Shown here: in pieces, positions 4,326-25,012 of the stretch | How the letters are laid out: the number at the start of each line of letters is the position of its first letter | How positions within the stretch are numbered: the stretch's first letter is position 1 | Source: Styela clava | Taxonomy: Eukaryota | NCBI RefSeq assembly: GCF_964204865.1 | Contig: NC_135255.1 | Coordinates: forward strand, 7,502,001 to 7,566,000 | Reading direction: 5' to 3' | Length of the DNA stretch: 64,000 nt | Translations under genes and position numbers: made by a program | The notes under the pieces: generated by a model | Database searches by the model: none | Told to the model about the DNA's origin: nothing | Seen by the model: only the letters and a program-made list of their open reading frames with translations

Positions 4326-5670
<1,345 letters not shown>

Positions 5671-9339: not shown

Positions 9340-11199
9340 ATTGTGAGTTCTAAGCTAACCTCCATCGTTACCATTATTCAATAATTTGCCAAGTGCCTCG
9401 AATGCACTGCAGCCATGAGCAATAAAAAATTGTTGTGATTGTTTATGATAGAATTACAATTTTATCGCAATGGAGAGGAAAGCCGAGCGCACTGTACATT
9501 ACCACGATGACGAATATCAGTGATATAAAACACTTTTTCATCGTGATTTACTCTTGCAGTATATCATTCAATAGTATTTTATGAAGTAAAAGTTATTCAA
9601 ACAATATGCCCATACGAATTTATACTCCATTTCTCATTTAGCATGATAGTCACTACGTCACTGAGAAGTTAATATTTTGGAACTTCTTGGGAAGTCGGGA
9701 ACTATTAATAAAGTTTGTAGATTATGAGGACACATTTTTTCTCTTTGTGACGATAAAAATTTCAACAATTTGAAACTTTACGTTATCTCAAGTCTCTGTA
9801 AAAATATTCTCTAGTTTGTGAGAAGGTTAGTCAACAGTTTCAGTCACGACTCTAACGTTACGTTGGCAAATTCACTATTTCCAGACATTGTCATTCTGCG
9901 AGTTTTTTGTAGTATTGTCGTGACCAAGTTTGAATCGGTATAAAATCAAGTTATATCGTGATAGATCAGATGTACACTAGAAATTACCATTTGTACATAC
10001 TACCTTTCTATAGTTCAGTAACCTACTGTTGACTCTAATTAGCTGAACATATAAATATTTTTTCAAATGTTTTAAACTTTTCATTCAATGTTTGTTAAAT
10101 TATGGTTTAAACTGGTTAGCTATTCAGTTTTTGTTGCTTGCTGAAACATGAAATCAAAAGCTTAGGTAGGATTTATATTATTTCGATATTGATGTAAGAT
10201 TTTTATTTACTGGGCCTTAGATTATTTATGAGTAATAATAATTTCGATTTGGCCATGTCTGGCGTTTCAGGTAATAAAATACGATATGTACAGCATGGAA
10301 TTGATACTGAACAATATTGGTATGGTAGGATATTTTTGATATATTGTTAGCAGACTCCTTGGGTATATTTAGCAAATATTCTCTTAGAATGGAATTTGTT
10401 AACTTCTTGATCAAGATCAAAGTTGCTATATTTGATCTATAGTGGAGTTTGGCTTCCGGTCGCTGTCGCTCAGACACGCACGGTTAACGTTTGATCGATC
10501 GACCACGGATTGACCACCTGAACTTTGCTAAAACATTATTCCTTGATGACGATGTTGAAAGAAACATTTCAACGCCATTTTAAAAATATTTTAGTTTGGT
10601 CCATGTATTGCTTCTAGACCTTTCTTATAATTTAAGTGATACGTTTTTTATCAAATTGTTACAAAATTGAATAAAACATGAACTGATTTGATCAGAATTT
10701 AATTGAATTGTTGTAAAACAAATTGGATATCCGTTTGTACTTTTATTGAATCAGAAATCGAAAGTTTGAATTCACTAGTAATCGAAAATACACAAATCAA
10801 CTTGGCATGCCTCGATTTCTCAGTGTGATAGAAATTTTATTTTAACTTTCTATCACAACTCCTGTCAGGTCAACAAGTCGAAAAATTTCGTGATCTTTAA
10901 TTTTTGATATGATTTGTGATCCGACTCATTAGAATCATGAAATAAAGCAAATTGATCAATTCAGTGTTACTTTGTGTCTACCGGTAACTCAACCAATGTG
11001 CAAGTTAATTCCATATCGACCCTTTATAATGAGTTAAAAGTGAAAGGTGAAAACATTAGATTGCCAATATCTGCCAACAATGATACATATACTTTCATTT
11101 ACGGAACAGAAGTATATTTCACATACTCATTCATTGATAATTTATTTTCATTTGTATTTTACTAACTCATCGTTTATAGTGCCTGCAGAATTACTACGC

Positions 11200-11408
11200 G
11201 GTACTCCCGTGTGTACCAGGTTAGGGTTAGGCCACGATTTTAATTCAATTTTCCTTATTTTAGTTCTATTACGAGTTCGAGGACTGTTTGTGTTAGCCAA
11301 GTGAATATACCCCCTGCTCAAATGCTTCCGTCCCTTTACACAACTTGATGTAAAGTAGGCGAACAAAATTGGTTACCTCCATATTGGTACGCATACTTCT
11401 GGAGCGCC
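11200..11408. mobile_element. Merlin-like MITE containing GGTTAGGGTTAGG
   Basis: GGTACTCC...GGAGCGCC termini; 8-bp TSD tactacgc / tactaagc; same family as 61283-61467. Confidence 0.8.
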
Positions 11409-13223
11409 TACTAAGCCAAATTCAGAGATCCATCGTTTTATTTATTTTTTATTTCGCAATATTTATTCAAATGGCTGCAGGCCAACTGACACCACCTGTC
11501 ATCATATGTTCGAATGACCCGGATATTTAAAGATATAATTCATGGTATAAACATTTCTTGTCGTAATTAATCTTCAAAATTATTGCAAGTCCATTCCAAG
11601 TTCATATGTAATTAAAAATTCCTAATCAATGTGACAGATTATGTACGTCAATACCAAATTGTAATTTCACTCTCGAGCGGAAATATAGCATCCATACGAA
11701 CTACCATCCATTAATTGTAAGTGATTGATTGGCTTTCATTGGAAAATCAAAGTACGCGTAGGTTTCTTATTTTTTAATCCTTTAGTAGCTTTTTTGTGCG
11801 AATTTCAACATCGCGAACTTGTTGTTAGCATTGTGAATAGTTCGTACCAATTTTCAAGTGAAAGATAATCTAATTGTATATAGCGCTATAATCAAACGCT
11901 GCTATTTATTCAAAATATACACAGGTATACCAACGAAACTCTAGGGGAGAAGAGACTAAAAATAAATTATTTTTGGTATCGAAGATTTTTCAATTCGGCA
12001 TAGCAGTTTATTTAGCGAAAATATTAATATTACATTCAACTATTTTTTTAAATTATTTTAGCTTATTAAACATTTGACTCCTACCACAAAATTTTCATCA
12101 TGATTCAGCATTGCCAGAATAATGAGTCAATTGTTGTTTATTCAAATCATCAAAAATTGACGGAGATGAAAATAATTGAACTTTAATGCTACCTCAACAA
12201 AATTGACTCTCGAATAATACAACGTACTTTAATAGGTTTAAATTAAACTTGGTATATTTATCTTGCACGAATTTAAATTTTCGTTTTATAGACCTAATTA
12301 ATTTTGTTTAATTCGAGTAGTAAGCCGAAGGCTGATGGACATTTTAGAATAAATGACTAGACCGACTTAAATAGAATTTTACGAAAAACTGGTTTTCCAG
12401 CAATGTTGTCCATTTGTGGGAATATTTCGCGTAATGGAAATGTTTGAAAAGTGAACCTTGTCGTATATTTCAATTTTTTTTAAACTTTTAGTGAGAAGTG
12501 TTTTCATTTGGACCTGGTAAGCATGGCAAGAGAAGGTAATATATTCTAAAAAATGTTTCACGAGCAGTGGCATTTGAAATATTTTGTTACATTTTAAAAA
12601 CTATATATTTGGTTGAGCAGTAATTTTAGCCAGTTCGCAAAAGAAGTTAATAGAACCTTGACATTTAGTGTGTTTCTCATATATTTTTATTATGATTGGA
12701 TAACCGTGACTTTCGTGAACAGTAGATAGACTGTAAGCTTTCAAAACCTTTATTGTTTACGATACCGTGGATGATTATACTTGATGTAGCATCGAATACA
12801 TGAGAGAGAATTAGACGGATTTTGAGGCTAAGAACTAACGAAGAAGAAATTCTTTTGTAACAATCAAAGTTGTAACTGTCATGTAGATGTAGATGAAACA
12901 TGATATGCATTTTCAAAATATTTTTATAGAGGTTTTGTGGGATTATATGAATATCTTATTTTTTCATTCTAATATTATAGAATATAAGTGGATAGTAGAG
13001 CATGTATGTTTATATATTGTTTCTCGGATTACTCTTGAGTGTTGGACAGACGTTTGGTAAGAGAATGTTTATTTTACGCATGAGAAAACTCTTTTGCATC
13101 AAATAAACTCAAAGATTATCAGAAAATTGTCTTTTGTGGTTTATTTTATTTTGATAAGTTTGGGAAATTTTTGCTCGTCAATTTATTATGTAAATTGCTA
13201 AAGAATATGAATAGTTTTTTTTT

Positions 13224-13332
13224 GACCTCCTGAAGTATGCGCACCAAGATGGCGCACAACCTGAACTCAGGTTGTATACCAGGTTAGGGTTCAGGTTATG
13301 CGACATCTTGGTGCGCATACTTCAGGAGTACC
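13224..13332. mobile_element. Hairpin MITE related to the 11200 family
   Basis: Near-perfect foldback ctcctgaagtatgcgcaccaagatg...catcttggtgcgcatacttcaggag with central ggttagggtt; flanked on both sides by G(T)9-10. Confidence 0.75.
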
Positions 13333-13424
13333 GTTTTTTTTTTAAATTAACGTATTATGTGAGTTCGAAAATTTGTTTAGTTTTTCCCGTTGTAAATGAT
13401 ATTTTATTTCATCGTTTAAACAAG

Positions 13425-16400
13425 TTTCTTGCTCGGTTCACCTATTCGTTTCAACAAATTTCGTCTACTGAGTCTTAATTATTACTCAATATACCAAAAT
13501 ATTGGTGAGTGCTATGAGTCATTCTCATGTAATTTACGACATTTAAATTGAGGTTATTTAAAAACCTTCACATTTTTTCGTAAAAACTCCAAACCGCAGT
13601 ATTGTACTGAAGTAATAAACAAATAAACACTTCTGATTATTTTCAGGTTTGAAATGTTGGACATGCGTGAACGCAAAATCGAATCGACAATGCAATAAGA
13701 TAGGATATTGGAGAACATGCGATGCACAAGAGGTATGAACGAAGTTGAGTTCAGGTTTACTTTATTTGACCAGGAATGAATAGCAAAATTGTCCCGATTA
13801 GGAATAGTTTTCTATATTTGACAGTCAAACGTTTTGTATTTTCTGTTTCTAATATTACCAGATAGGTCAATTTAGCAATAAAAATATTCTTGTAATTAAT
13901 GTGTAATTAAAACTGAAGAACGGATGACTAAATGAGTGAATTCAAAACGTGGGAATAATGATATTGCAATAAATTTTGCACCCGCCGTGCATGATGATGA
14001 AATTCATTTCATATAAAAATAACTTTAATATTAATCGCAACATCGCCCCGGGGCCGGCAATTGAGAACACGTCAAGCTGGTCGCTGTCGGATATAAATGT
14101 CGTGAAAAAAATGTAAAATATATGATGATTTTGACAAAATTTCGTGTTGCGTGTAGTTTTGTATGGGCAAATCGATGAATATGATATTGAATGACATGGA
14201 AATATAAACTATACTACGTGTTTGATTAATATGAGAAAAATGCTGCGACATGTTTGACAACTTTTGATATTTGTATCCAATGATATTCTTTTCTTCAAAA
14301 TTGATTTATACCACCTGATTGAATTTTCCGGGAAATCGAACTTTGGTCGTTTCAACTGTCACGCATTAATTTGGATAAATATCTTTATTTTCAAAAGAGC
14401 ACGCGAAGAGCCACCGACGATTAAAGCCATCAATCATGTTAATGCTTGGCTCTTTGTGGTAGCTATGTGATTTTGTAGAAAAAAAATAATGAACAAACAT
14501 TTACTCACGGCAAAAGCTTAATACGTTCTGTTTGCTCAAAATCAGGTATCGGAACGAATGAATTGATTCAAATTGAATCACGCCTGCAAACTCAAAATCA
14601 AACTGCGCAAGTTTTTTTTTGAAGCAGGTGGCAACGTCCGTTCGCCTTTTTTTATTTTGAAAAAATACAAAGAGTAACTATGATAATCATTTACATGACA
14701 TCGCTGTCTTGACTTATTGCCCTATTTATCAATTTATCATTTAAAACCGTTCATATTCAACATATTGAGATCATTGAATAACTTTATTCAGATATATTGT
14801 CACAATGAAGTTCAAGTAAGAAATGGAGTCAGAGGACGTGTCACGAAAAGATGTGCGCAGGGCCCAGCATGCAACCAGGTACCTTGGGAAATAAGTTAAC
14901 TATTGTATAAATTTATGTTTATTCTGAAAAATCTTCTAGGAATAGACATATTTATATATATCAATTAACCGCTTGTAATTTAATTCATGGCATGTTAGTC
15001 GTTCTTTGATGGTTTTGGCAAACAGGATGATACGTGACAGACTACCCATTTTTTTATCTTTTAAACAGAAAACAACGTTGAAACATTCCTAAAAAGTGCA
15101 TAAAAAGTCCTGGGTAATTTGGTATTCTTCAAAAAAAAAATTATCACCATTGTTCGAATTGATATTGGACATAACAGGAAAAGAAATACTGGAAGACATA
15201 CAGATACTATTAATTTCATTCATATGAAAATTATATATCATGGCGAATGGACTACTGAAAAAAATCATATTGATATTTTAGTAATTATTTTTCTTATATT
15301 TGAAAATTTATTATATATATGAACAAACTTTCAATCATCAGAATGCTGAAAATGCAACAGAAACAAGGTGTAATGGGAACCCTAGAAAATCGGCAGCTTG
15401 TAGTTGTTGCTGTAATCAAGATAATTGCAATGCACCACTGTTTAGATGCGGTGGGGGTGAGTTTGCAATTTTCTTATAAGCCTAGTTTGTTGGCCTGGTA
15501 CATAGCCCAGTTGAGTATTCTGCCACACTAGCTTCGTGAATTTGTAATCCTGCTTATAGAAACCACGGCCATATTTGAACCACACATTAATCTCGTGTGT
15601 TCGAATTAAATCTTTGTCTTTATTGTATGAATATTCAATCAAGTTGAATCGTGTACCACATGGCAAAATAATGATATTTTTATAAAGCCTTTTAGCCAAA
15701 TACGAATCCTAAACGTATTAAAATTTTGTCGATATGTATAATCTATGATTCTATGTATATTATTTGGTTACGGATAACTAAAAAGATATAGATATTTATA
15801 CCAAATTCTTCACACAACTTCAAGATCAGTCATACAATAGTTTTACAGTGTTTAACTTAATCAAACGTCGTGAGACGTGGCTCAGCATCCGTTTGTGTCC
15901 ATCATGATGGTTTAGCTTACATACGAAAATTCATATATCAAAATATTCAACTATAAGATCCCCACCGATTTTCCACAAGGCCAAAATATTTCATACTGTA
16001 GAAGCTAAAGTAAAATAATTTACTGTATTCAAAAAACTTTTCAGTTGAAATGTGCAAAAAGCCTCGTTATATTCAAAACGGAGAAATATCGTGTCCGAAG
16101 AAGATTAATATAGGAACCGTATGCAAGTTGAGATGTCAAAGAGGATTCATTCCAAACAGAAATAATGTTATAAAATGCCAACATACTCCAGGAAATAAAC
16201 CAGAAAGAGCGTTTACAAATCTATTGGGCTTGAAATGTATACGTAAACAACCACGATGCCCCTCGCTGAAAAACACAATTGTGCCGAGAGGCACTTTTAG
16301 TTGTAAAAACGTTCGACCACATATTAGGAAATTTATGAAAAATTTTCAAGGTACAACTTGTACTTTTAAATGCAATAGCAATGCATTTATGTCTGGAAAT

Positions 16401-17915
16401 CCTAGTCTTGTTTGTAATGCTGGACATTGGAGTCATGGAATTCCTAGATGTATTGTAGGGAGATGTCCAGCTCCACAAAAGGAAGAACTCACCTTCAGAC
16501 AATGCACCGCTGGAAACAAATTTGGAAGTATGTGTAGCTATACATGCGCAATCGGACTAAAAATAATAGGCGATTCAATTTCAGTATGTGGACCAACTAC
16601 CAATGATCCTTCGAGAGGAGAATGGGACAATGGGATTCCAAAATGTAAGATTGTACAATGCCCATCTCACGTATCAGTGAGCAATGGAGAAGCGCTACTG
16701 ACAAATGACAACTTTGAAGGTAGTGTTTGTATCTTCTCTTGTAAACCTGGATTTGATTTAGTAGGAACTCCATTCATTGAACTTGAAAGCGTATGTGAAG
16801 ACGACGGAACAGGTGTTGGAAAATGGAGTGAGCCAGCACCTACATGTTCCCAAATTACTTGTGATCCGGTTTTCAAAGCCCCAGAAAATGGAGCTGTGTT
16901 TTGTACTGATGACAACAAGTGGGGGAGCGCTTGTACATTCAGATGCAACTCTGGGTATGATTTGGGTGACACGTACTCTAACAGCATAAGATGCTTTTGT
17001 GAAGAAGGTAGAAATAGAGATAGCATTGGAGAATGGAGTCGAAAACCTCCAACCTGTACTGCCATCAAATGCCCGTCTGTAAGAAAGGCCCCTATCAACG
17101 GTTATGTTACTTGCACAAACGCAAATTTTGCAGAAAGTGTCTGTACTTTCAGGTGCAAACCAGGCTTCGACTTGGATATGACACCAAAAAAGACTTTTAC
17201 AAATCGTTGTGTTGACAGGGGATACGGAACAGCCACTGGCGAATGGGACAATTTTGAGCCTGGCTGTAGACGTAGAATATCTTGTTTACAAAAACACGAG
17301 TTTTTAGCAAATGGAAACGTGGAATGCACAAATGGTAATTTGGTGGGTAGCGCATGCAAATTTACTTGTTATAAAGGTTATCGATTGGTAGGTAGAGTAT
17401 ATTCAAATTGTGTCGAACTTTTGGCTGATGGAGATGATATTGCAGAGTGGACTAGCAAACCACCACGATGTGAGGCCAGTCACTGTCCATTTCAATGGTA
17501 CGACAAAGATCTTGTGATGGAAGATTGCGTTGGCAGAAAGACTAATCGTAAATCGTTTCACCTTCTTGGAACAAAGTGTCATTATACTTGCAAACGTCCG
17601 GGATATTATCCAGCCATGGCTAGCAATAAATTTGTGCAAGCTAGAACTACTGTGGCCACTTGTCTCAGTTCTTTAAGTTGGAGTACAAGACCTCCGAGAT
17701 GTTTTGTGAAAAAGTGCCCTCATATTCCAACACCGAAACATGGCTATGTACCGGACTGTTCAAATGCAAACAACTTCGGCTCAAGATGTGAATTTTGGTG
17801 CAAATATCCGCATAAAATATCTCATAAATCTAAATTATTATGTGTCAGCAAAGGCAGAAATGGAAGGCTGGGCAGATGGAATAAACCACCGCCAACATGC
17901 GATTCTGTGAAATAA
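13425..17915 (+). CDS. Probably secreted protein: N-terminal Ly6/uPAR (three-finger) domain + 9 six-cysteine sushi/CCP modules (selectin/SRPX-type)
   Basis: Phase-compatible exons 13647-13732 (LKCWTCVNAKSNRQCNKIGYWRTCDAQE), 14792-14878 (IYCHNEVQ...KRCAQGPACNQ), 15342-15456 (...CSCCCNQDNCN, the LU C-terminal CCxxxxCN signature) and 16045-17915 (nine C..C..C.F.C..G.....C....W...P.C repeats, stop, no TM segment). The 5' exons 13425-13504 and possibly 12492-12516 are less certain. Confidence 0.88.
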
Positions 17916-18523
17916 GATTCAAGATTATTTATAGCGCATAAAGCATGGTATTTTCAAATAGGAAAAATCAGTTCCAGTCGATGGAGTAACGCGAAATCAT
18001 AATTGACTAAACAGAGTGTTATCCATACACACCTGTTGGCGTAAAAAACACTGTATTAGATGGCAAATTTATGACTTTTTGTCAAAATACACTTCATTTA
18101 CTTACAATTCAGACAAAGAATCACTTTGTAACAAATTTTAACCTTTTTTAACGACGAGAACTATATATAAAAGAACTTTGAAAAAAGAAAGAAAATTTCA
18201 GGTTCAGCCTTTAAACATTGGCACGTTCATATAAAGGCATGCCATAATTTTTGTGTTTGAAAACGAATTTGCAAAAAGGATACTTTATTGAGCATGATAT
18301 ATTTAAAGATAAATATAATATTCTTCATTGATATGCATCTACTATCTGAAAGTCTGACGACTATAATACTGAAGAGTGACTGAGAATTGAGCAATAGGCA
18401 TACATGATCTCAAGGGGAGTTTCTCCAGAAAACAAACACAATGGTGATTTTTTTCTACTCAGATGCGTGGCAGTCGTTTAGTTTCCACTTACACTGGAAA
18501 GAGTAAAACGACAATCATTCAAA

Positions 18524-19632
18524 TAGAGTTGGATCATTTGTAATTGATGTAATTAATTACAGTTTTTCATGTAATTGAGGCATTTTCATTCTGTGTAATT
18601 GTAAATGTAATTTGCTAAAATTTTTGCTCACTTACACTTTCAATTAGACCAGGAATCACCAAACCACGGTATCCTTTCATCTGGCCCGCAATAACACGAA
18701 AAAGGGCGATATATTTTTTCAAGGGGCGTTTTCCGGGAATCGCCTTCCTTTTTTATTTCGTAACATTAGCCAATCAGCAGGACGCGAAAAATTGACCTAA
18801 CAATATGCCTTTCCGCATCCGTTAGGACACTCAGACAGATTTTCAGTCGTGGTTGTAAACAATACCTCATTTTGCGATTTCGAATGCTATTCGTTAGATT
18901 GCATTTTGACAAAAACCCATTTAATGTATTGGAAGAAGAAATCATAAGAATTTCCCAGGCTTGCTTCTTTAGCCAAGCATTATTTGGGACTAACAGCAAC
19001 ATCAGCCCCGTCAGATAGAGTTCTTTCAATTGTGGGTAACTTTTATACGGCAAGAGTAAATTTATTGGGGTCAGAAACTTTTCGTAGCCTAATTTTACAT
19101 CAAGTGCAATCAAACAGTTTTTGAGCAAGAGAAACTGTGAATATGAACCAAAATGTTGTGGACAGGTTAGTGGACACAATGATCGTTTTGACCAAAACTT
19201 TTGGTATTTTGTGTTGTTGTCCTTTGACATAGTTATTATTGAAAAGTCGCATTTATCTTCGATTACTGGACCTGATGCTCTGAAATTTTCAGTGGTTGAA
19301 GATGGAATTTGTTTCTAGAAGGCTATTACTTTTATTTCTAAATTTCGTATGAAATCTGATATTTCGTCCAAGATTTCGCTGTATTATTTTATCCATAGGA
19401 ACACTGGCTGTCTGGTTTGATTCTTGCTACGCTAAACTCGGAATTTTTTTGATGGTATCGGTAGCGTCAAGGGTAAGGACTGCTTCGCTCTGTGTAACGT
19501 GTTCATATATTTGAGCATTGCTTTGTTGTAATTGTAATTTTATATTTTTTGCACGGAGTAATTGTAATGTAATTGAAAAATTTAAGGGAATAATTGTAAT
19601 TGAACTGAATTAATGCAATTGATCCAACTCTG
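18524..19632. mobile_element. Non-autonomous hAT-type DNA transposon with internal non-transposase coding relic
   Basis: TAGAGTTGGATCA...TGATCCAACTCTG TIRs, TGTAAT subterminal repeats, perfect 8-bp TSD cattcaaa. Confidence 0.85.
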
Positions 19633-22761: not shown

Positions 22762-24103
22762 TAAGTGTTCTACTCGAAACCACTTTTTCCGCAAAACTAG
22801 CATTTGTACAATTGCTCGCTTTTACAAACTTAATCGCCAAAATATCAAAATAGTTGGTGTTCCCAATAATTCATTCTGGCCAAATTTGGTTCTCGCAAAA
22901 CTAAATCCCGACGTTAACCCGCTGCGGTTGCTGCAGAGACGTATTCCTCCAAACAATCTATTTAGATTTCATACAATAAAATACTCCTGCAGTACGAGCG
23001 CGGCAGCTCATAGTTGTGATCAGTCGCATCAACGAGTTTGGGGCAGTGGCGGAACAGCATTTTTGTTCTGTTGTATGATTAGCTAATGCTAGTATAAAAA
23101 AGTTCATGACTCAGCTTGAAGCAGGTAAAACGAATCCATTTCTCGCAAAAATGACAAAAAATACAACTATCGTAATCTGCGATAGTAGCAAACTTGACAT
23201 TTTTAAAAAGTTTGATTTTGAATATATAAGTTAGGATAAAAGGATCAAGCGACAGAAGCGACTAAGGCGAATTAATGCAATGCTGAGAGATCAATGAGCA
23301 TTGGACTGAGTGTCACACCGCAAATGATGTACGCCAAGTGAAGTGTATCCATAAAGACGTGCAGATGCGGTTCATTAACCAATGTTCACCCACTCAATCG
23401 GTAAATAGCCACTGGCAACATCTGACTGAAAACGCGGGCTGGCTGCGAGGATAGGTTGCGATGAAGTTCTCTCCATAATAATTAGGAGCCCCCAATTAAT
23501 CAATCTCAATAAAAAGGAAATGCTAGTACAATGTTTCCGCCACATACCGGTATAAACGCAATAAAACTTAACTGTCTAACGTACTACCTAAACCAGGCGT
23601 GGTATCGGTCAGTTAAGTTGTATTAGGCCTTTGTTAGAAGTAGGCAGTTTTTAGTAGTTGGTTTCTTATTTTACTTTAATGTTTGATACAAAACGAGGCC
23701 AGACTCGAAATAGAGGTACAGTGGTGGCTAAGTATGCTTACTATGAAATTAAACGAGTGTTATATTTGCAAAAAGTTAGGGAAGGAAACCGAGCGAATGG
23801 TCACGGATTACATGCTCACTTATGCGTGATAAAGTAGCAACTGATCAAAAGGATGCGCCGGCGATAACAAAACGCGAACCGTCAATCTGCAAATGCTCTA
23901 TTGACCCAGTTTTAAACGTTGATGCAATGTAAAACGTTACAGTAGTAAAAAGCAGCATGCGAGGATTCGAGACCTCGGTTGGACTAGAAATCTTTGAAAC
24001 ATATTTAATCTTGTATTGATAAATATTTTTAAATTACCAGACAATAGTTTATCAAGTGTCTCATTTATTCAATTGACTGGTGTTTCCAGTTTAAGAACTT
24101 AAA

Positions 24104-25012
24104 ATGGAGGTAGAAAAACTATTTAAACGGATGAATTATTGCGGACCGATTGACCACACTAGTATTGATATTCTAAATGAGCTTTGTCTGTCATTTGTAT
24201 CAACAATACCGTATGAAACCTTGGATAATTTTGCGGAGAAGAAACGAGCAACACGACCCTATGATTTGAAAGTAACTTTCAATAGAATTGTTAATGAACA
24301 CAGGGGAGGTAATTGTCTTGAACTGAATATGATTTTGGAGTGGATGCTGGAGAAGCTTGGTTATAATGTCAGTAGATATATGGGCTATGGTTACGATGTT
24401 GAAAATGATTGCTTTGGACATGACCGTCATCATGTCATTTTATTAGTAACATTTGAAGATGGAATGACCTGGTTGACAGATGTAGGTTGGAACGGTGCTT
24501 CCTTTGTGTTGCCGTTGCTGATGCATGTACCTACTTTAGAGCAATCTCAACCTAGTGGCATTTACAAAGTTGCCAAGCACGACGATGGCTATTATGTAGT
24601 CGAAAAAAGATGGCAAAATCAAGTGGACGAGGAAAAACAGATTATCAAACACAATCAAAAAGCTAATGAAGCTTTGAGTCGATACCAAACCAGCAAGGAT
24701 TGGATGGTAATATACGGGTTTAAATTGGAAACAAAGCCAATGGAAGAATTCGAAAAGGCCTTTGTTTTGTCACAAGAAAAGCACCCATTCACGACTTCCA
24801 ACTGCCTTGCTATACTACAGGACAGATATCATAGGAGATTTATAAATGGGTATACCTATGTCAAAAAGAAATACGTTAATAGCATGATGATTCAAGTTGA
24901 GAAACGAAAATGTGAAAATAGTGAATTAATTGAAATTCTAAGGTCAGAATTCGGTATAAACCTGGGTTACAAACTCCAACCTAAAACCGATTTGCCACTC
25001 AATGTCGCATAA
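24104..25012 (+). CDS. Arylamine N-acetyltransferase (302 aa, single coding exon)
   Basis: IPYETL; RGGNCLELN (catalytic Cys); HHVILLV (His); LTDVG (Asp); ends ILRSEFGI. Confidence 0.95.
   Translation: MEVEKLFKRMNYCGPIDHTSIDILNELCLSFVSTIPYETLDNFAEKKRATRPYDLKVTFNRIVNEHRGGNCLELNMILEWMLEKLGYNVSRYMGYGYDVENDCFGHDRHHVILLVTFEDGMTWLTDVGWNGASFVLPLLMHVPTLEQSQPSGIYKVAKHDDGYYVVEKRWQNQVDEEKQIIKHNQKANEALSRYQTSKDWMVIYGFKLETKPMEEFEKAFVLSQEKHPFTTSNCLAILQDRYHRRFINGYTYVKKKYVNSMMIQVEKRKCENSELIEILRSEFGINLGYKLQPKTDLPLNVA

What the first reader, a model, noticed from the sequence alone, without database searches (positions are those of the whole stretch)
13647..17915. Ly6/uPAR domain fused to nine sushi/CCP modules
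Seen: three small exons missed by the ORF track build a three-finger domain (LKCWTC...CCCNQDNCN) that splices in frame to the 621-aa CCP array. There is no TM or GPI tail. Terminal modules are strongly basic, central ones acidic (EDDGTG, DGDDIAEW). Established: in vertebrates LU proteins (CD59) and CCP arrays (factor H, CR1, selectins) are separate complement or adhesion proteins. Inference: a tunicate-specific soluble complement regulator, recognition protein or tunic/matrix protein combining both modules.
Basis: partly seen in the sequence, partly recalled or inferred. Interest (0 to 1): 0.7.

Follow-up and report, generated by a model that had tools for sequence, protein, structure and literature searches.

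The report
Truncated sea-squirt three-finger sushi rod
This intact sea-squirt gene encodes a likely secreted rod protein with a predicted three-finger domain on top of nine sushi domains; it is a shortened, strongly basic member of a large sea-squirt family that databases mislabel as selectins, and it likely sticks to sugar-rich matrix while its tip binds another protein.

Summary
The N-terminal domain folds as a three-finger (LU) domain closest to LYPD6/6B/LYPD1, with 14 cysteines; nine mostly six-cysteine sushi (CCP) modules follow; no membrane or GPI tail. One probable-RNA contig fits the spliced form exactly, and alleles show purifying selection. The fusion is not a singleton: it is the plan of a large ascidian family (signal-LU-CCPn-vWA; at least 25 other LU-bearing loci here), which by published primer sequences likely includes Ci-sushi. 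This gene belongs to an eight-gene Styela subfamily whose CCP array lies in one long exon, and is the only one of the eight that stops before CCP10 and vWA. It is the most basic of them and lacks the acidic Dx[DN]xD hairpins. All named relatives are ascidians; I found no paper describing LU-CCP fusions. Function is untested: a matrix-docked binding protein is likelier than a complement regulator. This scan noted the same family before on other DNA. New variant of a known kind; moderate interest.

The parts
13002..13056 (+).
   Evidence: probable-RNA contig of run X1 ends its piece at 13056; P0033 identical
13647..13732 (+). Exon 2: LU domain, finger I (4 Cys)
   Evidence: Pfam PF16975 E 0.11 alone; depth bin fits
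14792..14878 (+). Exon 3: LU domain, finger II (3 Cys)
15342..15456 (+). Exon 4: LU domain, finger III, C-x-C-C-C...CN motif and 14th Cys; phase-1 donor
   Evidence: (record 4)
16045..17915 (+). Exon 5: all nine CCP modules and the stop codon in one 1871-base exon
16050..16454 (+). CCP1 and CCP2, strongly basic (+11, +10)
16461..17474 (+). CCP3-CCP7 with long pre-Trp hairpins; CCP4 acidic (-8) with 5 Cys, CCP5 with 7 Cys
17481..17903 (+). CCP8 and CCP9, basic (+8, +9); CCP9 hairpin basic where six of seven paralogues are acidic
17916..18273 (+). 3' untranslated region as far as the probable-RNA contig reaches; no CCP10 or vWA remnant
   Evidence: X1 record 8
13224..13332 (.). High-copy short inverted-repeat element (MITE-like) in intron 1; not part of the protein
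   Evidence: (very high depth, loose ends)

Best explanation
The gene encodes a likely secreted, rod-shaped protein whose predicted three-finger tip would bind a partner protein while its basic end modules likely dock it on sulfated sugars of the extracellular matrix or tunic. Shown: intact five-exon gene, signal-peptide-like N-terminus, 14-Cys LU-fold domain, nine CCPs, no membrane anchor, no vWA, purifying selection. Inferred: family members with LU at one end and vWA at the other act as two-ended linkers between cells and matrix; this copy arose by duplication from a 10-CCP+vWA gene of the single-exon subfamily, lost CCP10 and vWA, eroded its acidic hairpins and became basic, so it would hold on by charge and present the LU tip (or compete with full-length members for the LU partner).
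For: Gene and protein. Splicing: X1 has zero depth in five intron-only bins where the DNA-like run X7 is covered, and a 415-letter contig equals 78+86+87+115+49 bases of exons 1-5. Selection: 15 silent to 5 replacement differences among the 20 coding differences shown, pN/pS about 0.09. LU fold: pLDDT 87.6, LYPD6 TM 0.73, LYPD6B Z 10.7, rmsd 2.7 over 84, LYPD1 E 5.7e-8. Family: 25 of 48 profile hits carry Sushi+VWA, 9 Sushi without VWA; colinear with the tandem neighbour XP_039254673 over LU+9 CCP, 34% identity; 7 of 7 subfamily paralogues continue into CCP10 and a vWA-like domain. Charge: net +45; CCP region +5.9 per 100 residues, highest of 34 rows with four or more modules. S. clava tunic holds GAG-like and sulfated-galactan-like polysaccharides (PMC8747265, abstract). 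Unidentified 'P-selectin' genes of Styela are reported from endostyle and tail regression as matrix-related (PMC9953650, PMC11988888; passages). That basic CCP modules bind polyanions (factor H, C4BP) is recalled knowledge.
Against: No binding, localisation or tissue data for this gene; its accession appears in no paper searched. Basic charge is not tied to vWA loss across the family (Mann-Whitney p 0.09), and four of seven vWA-bearing paralogues are also net basic (+15 to +26). Only two minimal heparin-type consensus matches. The published 'P-selectin' genes could not be mapped to this locus. The sister relation to the tandem neighbour has only 88% SH-aLRT and joins two long branches.
Confidence: 0.45

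Rival explanations
1. Secreted developmental signal or modulator, like Ci-sushi: the LU tip acts on a cell-surface receptor (by analogy with LYPD1/LYPD6 on nicotinic receptors or LRP6, recalled) during metamorphosis or tissue remodelling. Not exclusive of matrix docking.
For: Published Ci-sushi qPCR primers (PMC4389792) translate to two peptides that fit the family LU domain in the right order, the second being its C-terminal cysteine cluster. Ci-sushi is reported as a JNK target needed for tail-cell apoptosis (passages in PMC4389792, PMC8495957, PMC13225635). Nearest solved structures are LYPD6/6B/LYPD1.
Against: The Ci-sushi protein itself was not among the 105 stored proteins (no exact match to the forward-primer peptide); orthology to this gene is not shown and the LU tree is unresolved. 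No Asn-x-Ile motif is conserved at the finger II tip across the family. The primary paper could not be read.
Confidence: 0.22
2. Soluble complement regulator or innate-immune recognition protein from haemocytes, combining a CD59-like and a factor-H/CR1-like part.
For: Best PDB sequence matches of the array are CR1, Crry, CD55, CD46. Ascidians have C3, Bf, MASPs and putative CCP regulators (PMC5465252, passages). A Botrylloides Sushi/vWA gene marks phagocyte-like cells (PMC12212465, passage). Basic end modules recall factor H (recalled).
Against: The PDB ranking reflects which CCP arrays are solved; the only non-self hit in the near-length search was a frog P-selectin, and the modules have six cysteines whereas complement regulators have four (recalled). 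CD59 is not the nearest LU fold (Z 7.3 against 10.7) and there is no GPI tail. Allelic variation is mostly silent, unlike a diversifying recognition gene.
Confidence: 0.2
3. Egg-coat or gamete-recognition protein (LU domains such as Bouncer act in fertilisation).
For: Secreted, cysteine-rich, fast-diverging paralogues (31-37% identity); fish LU proteins regulate fertilisation (PMC13719153, text).
Against: No gonad data; replacement polymorphism is low; no ZP or other egg-coat domain.
Confidence: 0.08
4. Decaying duplicate: a truncated copy on its way to being a pseudogene.
For: Loss of CCP10+vWA, one missing Cys in CCP4, one extra in CCP5, eroded hairpins.
Against: Open 737-codon frame at only about 35% identity to its nearest paralogues with 68 cysteines kept, spliced probable-RNA contigs, pN/pS about 0.09.
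Confidence: 0.03

Closest known systems
Ascidian LU-CCPn-vWA proteins, auto-named 'E-/P-selectin-like' or 'SVEP1-like' (e.g. Styela XP_039254673, Ciona XP_009861089 and XP_002125765, Clavelina XP_076808717)
   Same: Signal peptide, 14-Cys LU domain on phase-matched small exons, six-Cys CCP array, no membrane anchor
   Different: No CCP10 or vWA; net charge +45 against mostly negative values; no Dx[DN]xD hairpin
Ci-sushi (ci0100139289 / KH.C11.274, 'P-selectin-like')
   Same: Its published primers translate to motifs of the same LU domain; described as a sushi-domain protein
   Different: Full sequence not seen; orthology untested; its function in tail regression is known to me only through citing papers
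LYPD6 / LYPD6B / LYPD1 (Lynx2), 12-Cys LU domains (PDB 6GBI, 6ZSO, 6ZSS)
   Same: Nearest folds and profile matches
   Different: Two further cysteines; below the Pfam cut-off for PF16975 (22-24 bits against 31.5); fused to a CCP array instead of ending in a GPI anchor (GPI status of LYPD1 from PMC13719153; of LYPD6 recalled)
Vertebrate selectins (E, P, L)
   Same: Six-cysteine CCP modules in tandem; frog P-selectin 27% identical over the array
   Different: No C-type lectin, EGF, transmembrane or cytoplasmic part
Regulators of complement activation (factor H, CR1, CD55, CD46, C4BP) and CD59
   Same: CCP fold; secreted array with basic ends; LU fold shared with CD59
   Different: Six rather than four cysteines per module, long inserted hairpins, LU closer to LYPD6; no activity tested
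Non-standard invertebrate LU fusions (Kunitz, C1q, fibrinogen-like, Ig, MAM, thioredoxin, 7TM; PMC13719153)
   Same: LU used as a module in a larger secreted mosaic, each confined to one lineage
   Different: That survey of 387 genomes had no tunicate and its main text names no sushi/CCP fusion

Membership tests
Ly6/uPAR (LU, three-finger) domain | Three-finger beta fold | tested here: met
   Alignment-based model pLDDT 87.6; Foldseek top three LYPD6/6B, TM 0.66-0.73; VIA Z 10.7, rmsd 2.7, 84 aligned
Ly6/uPAR (LU, three-finger) domain | Core of ten conserved cysteines with C-terminal CC-x4-CN (ten Cys per PMC6337849; motif recalled) | tested here: met
   Cysteines align with LYPD1 and LYPD6 in the profile alignments; 14 Cys in 59 of 67 rows; motif in exon 4
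Ly6/uPAR (LU, three-finger) domain | Canonical disulfide pairing | not testable with these tools
   No coordinates returned; pairing of the extra cysteines (Cys98 with Cys112 suspected) is inference
LYPD6/LYPD6B/LYPD1 orthologues | Single LU domain with GPI-anchor tail | tested here: not met
   LU is followed by nine CCPs and a polar C-terminus
LYPD6/LYPD6B/LYPD1 orthologues | Pfam PF16975 above gathering score | tested here: not met
   22.1 and 24.4 bits against 31.5
LYPD6/LYPD6B/LYPD1 orthologues | Asn-x-Ile LRP6-binding motif at the finger II tip (recalled) | tested here: inconclusive
   Asn-Gly-Val at 58-60 and Asn-Lys-Ile at 35-37 here; neither conserved in the family alignment
Sushi/CCP/SCR domain | Pfam PF00084 above cut-off; Cys and Trp pattern | tested here: met
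   138 bits, 9 stretches; Trp before the last Cys in 8 of 9 modules, absent in CCP1
Selectins | N-terminal C-type lectin plus EGF domain | tested here: not met
   Pfam finds neither at E up to 10; LU occupies the N-terminus
Selectins | Transmembrane helix and cytoplasmic tail | tested here: not met
   stop four residues after the last Cys, probable-RNA contig runs through the stop into 3' UTR
Selectins | Six-cysteine CCP modules (recalled) | tested here: met
   6 Cys in 7 of 9 modules, 5 in CCP4, 7 in CCP5
Regulators of complement activation (factor H, CR1, C4BP, CD55, CD46) | Arrays of four-cysteine CCP modules (recalled) | tested here: not met
Regulators of complement activation (factor H, CR1, C4BP, CD55, CD46) | C3b/C4b binding with cofactor or decay-accelerating activity | not testable with these tools
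   needs a bench assay
Ascidian LU-CCPn-vWA family | 14-Cys LU directly after the signal peptide, followed by six-Cys CCPs | tested here: met
Ascidian LU-CCPn-vWA family | C-terminal vWA domain | tested here: not met
   No Pfam VWA; no hit of a family vWA profile in six frames of the window at E up to 1; neighbour's C-terminus finds only CCP matches in the window. The profile also missed the neighbour's degenerate vWA, so a very decayed remnant is not excluded
Dx[DN]xDG calcium-type hairpins in ascidian CCPs | Dx[DN]xD(G) in the loop before the conserved Trp | tested here: not met
   0 of 8 loops here, against 10 of 19 strict matches in P0011 and 1-3 loose matches in six of seven paralogues

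The most novel reading that the evidence does not exclude
Ascidians evolved their own 14-cysteine three-finger module and placed it at the tip of dozens of secreted rods (with CCP, vWA, EGF, lectin and other modules), including the metamorphosis gene Ci-sushi. The tip is a receptor ligand, making these matrix-tethered signals; this gene is a natural vWA-less, polyanion-docked version that came from an intron-stripped (reverse-transcript-derived) subfamily and acts as a decoy or switch for the full-length members.
Probability: 0.15. Interest if true: 0.75.

Novelty: new variant of a known kind. Interest (0 to 1): 0.45.

Why it matters
Dozens of ascidian genes are read in transcriptome papers as 'P-selectin', 'E-selectin' or 'SVEP1' and interpreted as such, yet they lack every selectin-defining part and carry an unannotated three-finger domain that Pfam scores below cut-off. 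Recognising the family corrects those readings, gives Ci-sushi a likely binding module to test, and adds a lineage-specific LU fusion that a 2026 survey of invertebrate LU proteins missed because it held no tunicate. This particular gene is a natural deletion variant (no vWA, no acidic hairpins) next to a full-length paralogue, which makes a ready comparison for what each module does. The individual domains are all known, the gene model is in RefSeq, and no mechanism is shown, which limits the interest.

Tried and rejected
Single-sequence AlphaFold of the whole protein failed (mean pLDDT 31) and was not used. A word-index search with the LU region alone found only the protein itself; the HMMER and profile searches found the family. 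The LU-only tree was unresolved: 30 of 63 inner branches open, this row long. The idea that vWA loss goes with basic charge family-wide is not supported (p 0.09). A first loop count missed loops through a regex fault and was redone. No run holding the stretch is on record as RNA; thin or absent cover in X5 and X11 is no evidence on expression. No cross-check of the junction in further runs was given. Supplements of PMC13225635 held none of three family UniProt accessions; those of PMC11988888 and PMC9953650 gave no hit for 'selectin', so the published Styela 'P-selectin' genes could not be mapped. Supplements of PMC13719153 (full LU lists) were not read and might hold a CCP fusion not named in the text. 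Atlas feature search for LU+CCP1 gave no usable hit. Chambon et al. 2007 was not held. No complex prediction was run because no partner is identified. The orphan cysteines of CCP4 and CCP5 might allow cross-linking; not tested.
Full report
Gene structure. A database protein 100% identical to the long exon's product in local alignment (P0001, 'E-selectin-like', Styela clava) showed a 19-residue leader, which maps to a fifth exon at 13002-13056. The five-exon translation has 737 residues, differs from P0001 at 9 positions and is identical to RefSeq XP_039254674.2 (P0033). So the gene model already exists in RefSeq; the LU domain is what is unannotated.

Splicing and selection. Four runs of one study hold 36-38% of the words of the region, about the exon share; they are only guessed to be RNA. 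Laid on 11000-18600, run X1 has zero depth in five intron-only bins while the DNA-like run X7 covers 30 of 30 bins. The joint table was cut (85 rows hidden), so I did not see the junction rows. But one X1 contig of 415 letters places 15339 at its letter 249: that leaves 78 letters for exon 1 after exons 2 and 3, and 49 letters after exon 4, ending at 16093 if joined to 16045, which overlaps the next contig (start 16064) by 30; expected bin depths match (2.6 with the junction, 1.1 without, 2.55 seen). Another contig runs through the stop to 18273. Of the 20 coding differences shown in X1 and X7 (45 rows of the table were hidden), 15 are silent and 5 replace a residue; pN/pS is about 0.09, binomial p 3e-7. 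The gene is intact and under purifying selection.

Domains. Pfam gives nine Sushi stretches and a sub-threshold LYPD6-type match for residues 19-110 (E 1.8e-4, 22.1 bits, cut-off 31.5). An alignment of 26 LU stretches gave a confident model (pLDDT 87.6, pTM 0.78). Its best matches are LYPD6 (E 1.5e-4, TM 0.73) and LYPD6B (Z 10.7, rmsd 2.7 over 84; CD59 Z 7.3); the profile's best PDB sequence is LYPD1 (E 5.7e-8). The domain has 14 cysteines, as do 59 of 67 rows examined, fragments included: the 12 of LYPD1/6 plus one before the CC pair and one after CN, which I infer to pair. CCPs have six cysteines except CCP4 (5) and CCP5 (7). There is no hydrophobic tail; pI 9.1; end modules and LU are basic, only CCP4 is clearly acidic.

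Family. HMMER over 1.84 billion representatives gave 31 hits; of the 30 besides the query, 19 have Sushi and 13 Sushi+VWA. Thirty of the 31 were looked up: 20 carry names, 19 of them with a visible species, all Styela, Ciona or Clavelina; 10 are unnamed. The profile search for longer proteins gave 48 hits: 34 with Sushi, 25 with Sushi+VWA; 30 show a species, all ascidians; 4 names are cut before the species and 14 are unnamed. The same LU is also fused to EGF, C-type lectin, somatomedin B, EF-hand and globin domains. The profile is ascidian-built and that search needs shared words, so restriction to tunicates is supported, not proven. In this genome 19 of 20 non-self matches, from 18 loci, show LU-type exons; with the minus-strand gene P0090 upstream and six genes fetched later there are at least 25 other LU-bearing loci.

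What is special about this copy. Searching the genome with the CCP exon gave eight genes whose arrays lie in open frames of 633-813 codons; the other matches are short frames of one or a few modules, and the neighbour P0090 has its CCPs on several exons. The eight, with P0032, form a starred group in a quick tree (SH-aLRT 97); the pairing with the tandem neighbour 21-31 kb upstream (XP_039254673, 34% identical and colinear over LU and nine CCPs) has 88 and joins long branches. All seven paralogues continue into CCP10 and a vWA-like domain; this gene stops after CCP9, and no vWA remnant was found in the window. Its long pre-Trp hairpins hold no Dx[DN]xD motif (0 of 8 loops) whereas six of seven paralogues keep one to three, and its CCP9 hairpin is basic. 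Its CCP region is the most basic of 34 rows compared, though four paralogues are also net basic. Loss of introns through a reverse-transcribed copy, sparing the 5' introns, is my inference for the single exon.

Literature. Searches for ascidian/sushi/Ly6/von Willebrand, tunicate/three-finger/Ly6/Ciona, LU domain/sushi/domain architecture and the accessions found no description of an LU-CCP protein. PMC13719153 (parts 1-3 of 4 read, the whole main text; supplements not read) surveyed 387 invertebrate genomes, with a lancelet as the only chordate, and lists LU fusions with Kunitz, C1q, fibrinogen-like, Ig, MAM, thioredoxin, permease and 7TM domains, with VWA in the figure legend, but no sushi. 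Ci-sushi (KH.C11.274, 'P-selectin-like') is cited as a JNK target needed for tail apoptosis (passages of PMC13225635, PMC8495957, PMC4389792). Its published primers translate to two peptides that fit the family LU domain in order, so it is likely a member; the lead came from an earlier scan note, and the full protein was not seen. Styela 'P-selectin' genes are mentioned as matrix-related in endostyle and tail regression (PMC9953650 passage, PMC11988888 section 3.4) but could not be mapped here. S. clava tunic holds GAG-like and sulfated-galactan-like polysaccharides (PMC8747265 abstract). Passages of PMC5465252, PMC12212465, PMC7401272, PMC6337849, PMC4109947 and a blank term search in PMC13746493 were also seen.

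Mechanism. Shown: an intact gene for a signal-bearing, anchorless LU-CCP9 protein that lacks the family's vWA end. Inferred: full-length members are two-ended linkers; this copy would dock on sulfated matrix sugars through basic end modules and present its LU tip to a protein partner (0.45). Rivals: Ci-sushi-like signalling (0.22, compatible with docking), complement or immune regulator (0.2; best PDB matches are complement regulators, but the modules are six-cysteine type and CD59 is not the nearest LU), gamete recognition (0.08), decaying copy (0.03).

Verdict. Real, correctly spotted, and apparently undescribed in print as an architecture; but it is one truncated member of a large ascidian family that this scan has noted before on other DNA (a look-up by sequence found no note on this gene). 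It fails the membership tests for selectins and for complement regulators. New variant of a known kind; interest 0.45.

Noticed in passing
G000:C6:7485452-7493792 (+), upstream of the window: Tandem paralogue XP_039254673: same four small exons, LU + 10 CCP in one 791-codon frame + degenerate vWA without an evident DxSxS motif.
   Followed up: yes
G000:C6:7473969-7481327 (-): Third family gene (P0090, 595 aa), divergently oriented, with CCPs on separate exons and a vWA that keeps DxSxS.
   Followed up: partly
L031-L036 (C6:9.85-9.88 Mb, C10:18.05-18.06 Mb, C19:9.44 Mb): Six more genes of the single-exon CCP subfamily, with acidic Asp-rich hairpins at CCP4, 5, 7, 9 and vWA-like ends; the two C10 genes are recent duplicates.
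   Followed up: partly
window 4329-5670 and G000:C6:7501034 onward: Two nearly identical actin genes inside a tandem duplication of about 5.3 kb (99.6-99.95% identity); recent duplication or assembly artefact. The N-terminus looks like ascidian muscle actin (recalled).
   Followed up: no
window 24095-25012 (+): Single-frame arylamine N-acetyltransferase-type ORF, Pfam PF00797 E 2.6e-39.
   Followed up: no
window 11210-11408 and 13224-13332: High-copy short elements with inverted-repeat structure, MITE-like.
   Followed up: no
P0091 (Clavelina), P0025, P0008, L006: The same 14- or 12-Cys LU module is fused to a globin, to EF-hand/EGF/thyroglobulin, to somatomedin B, and between EGF repeats and vWA: a mobile ascidian module.
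   Followed up: no
window 16656-17060: CCP4 lacks its second cysteine and CCP5 has an extra one (Cys431), leaving two likely unpaired thiols that might cross-link.
   Followed up: no
L010, L013 (C1:8.19 Mb): Two adjacent genes with an LU domain followed by Pro/Thr-rich tails instead of CCPs.
   Followed up: no
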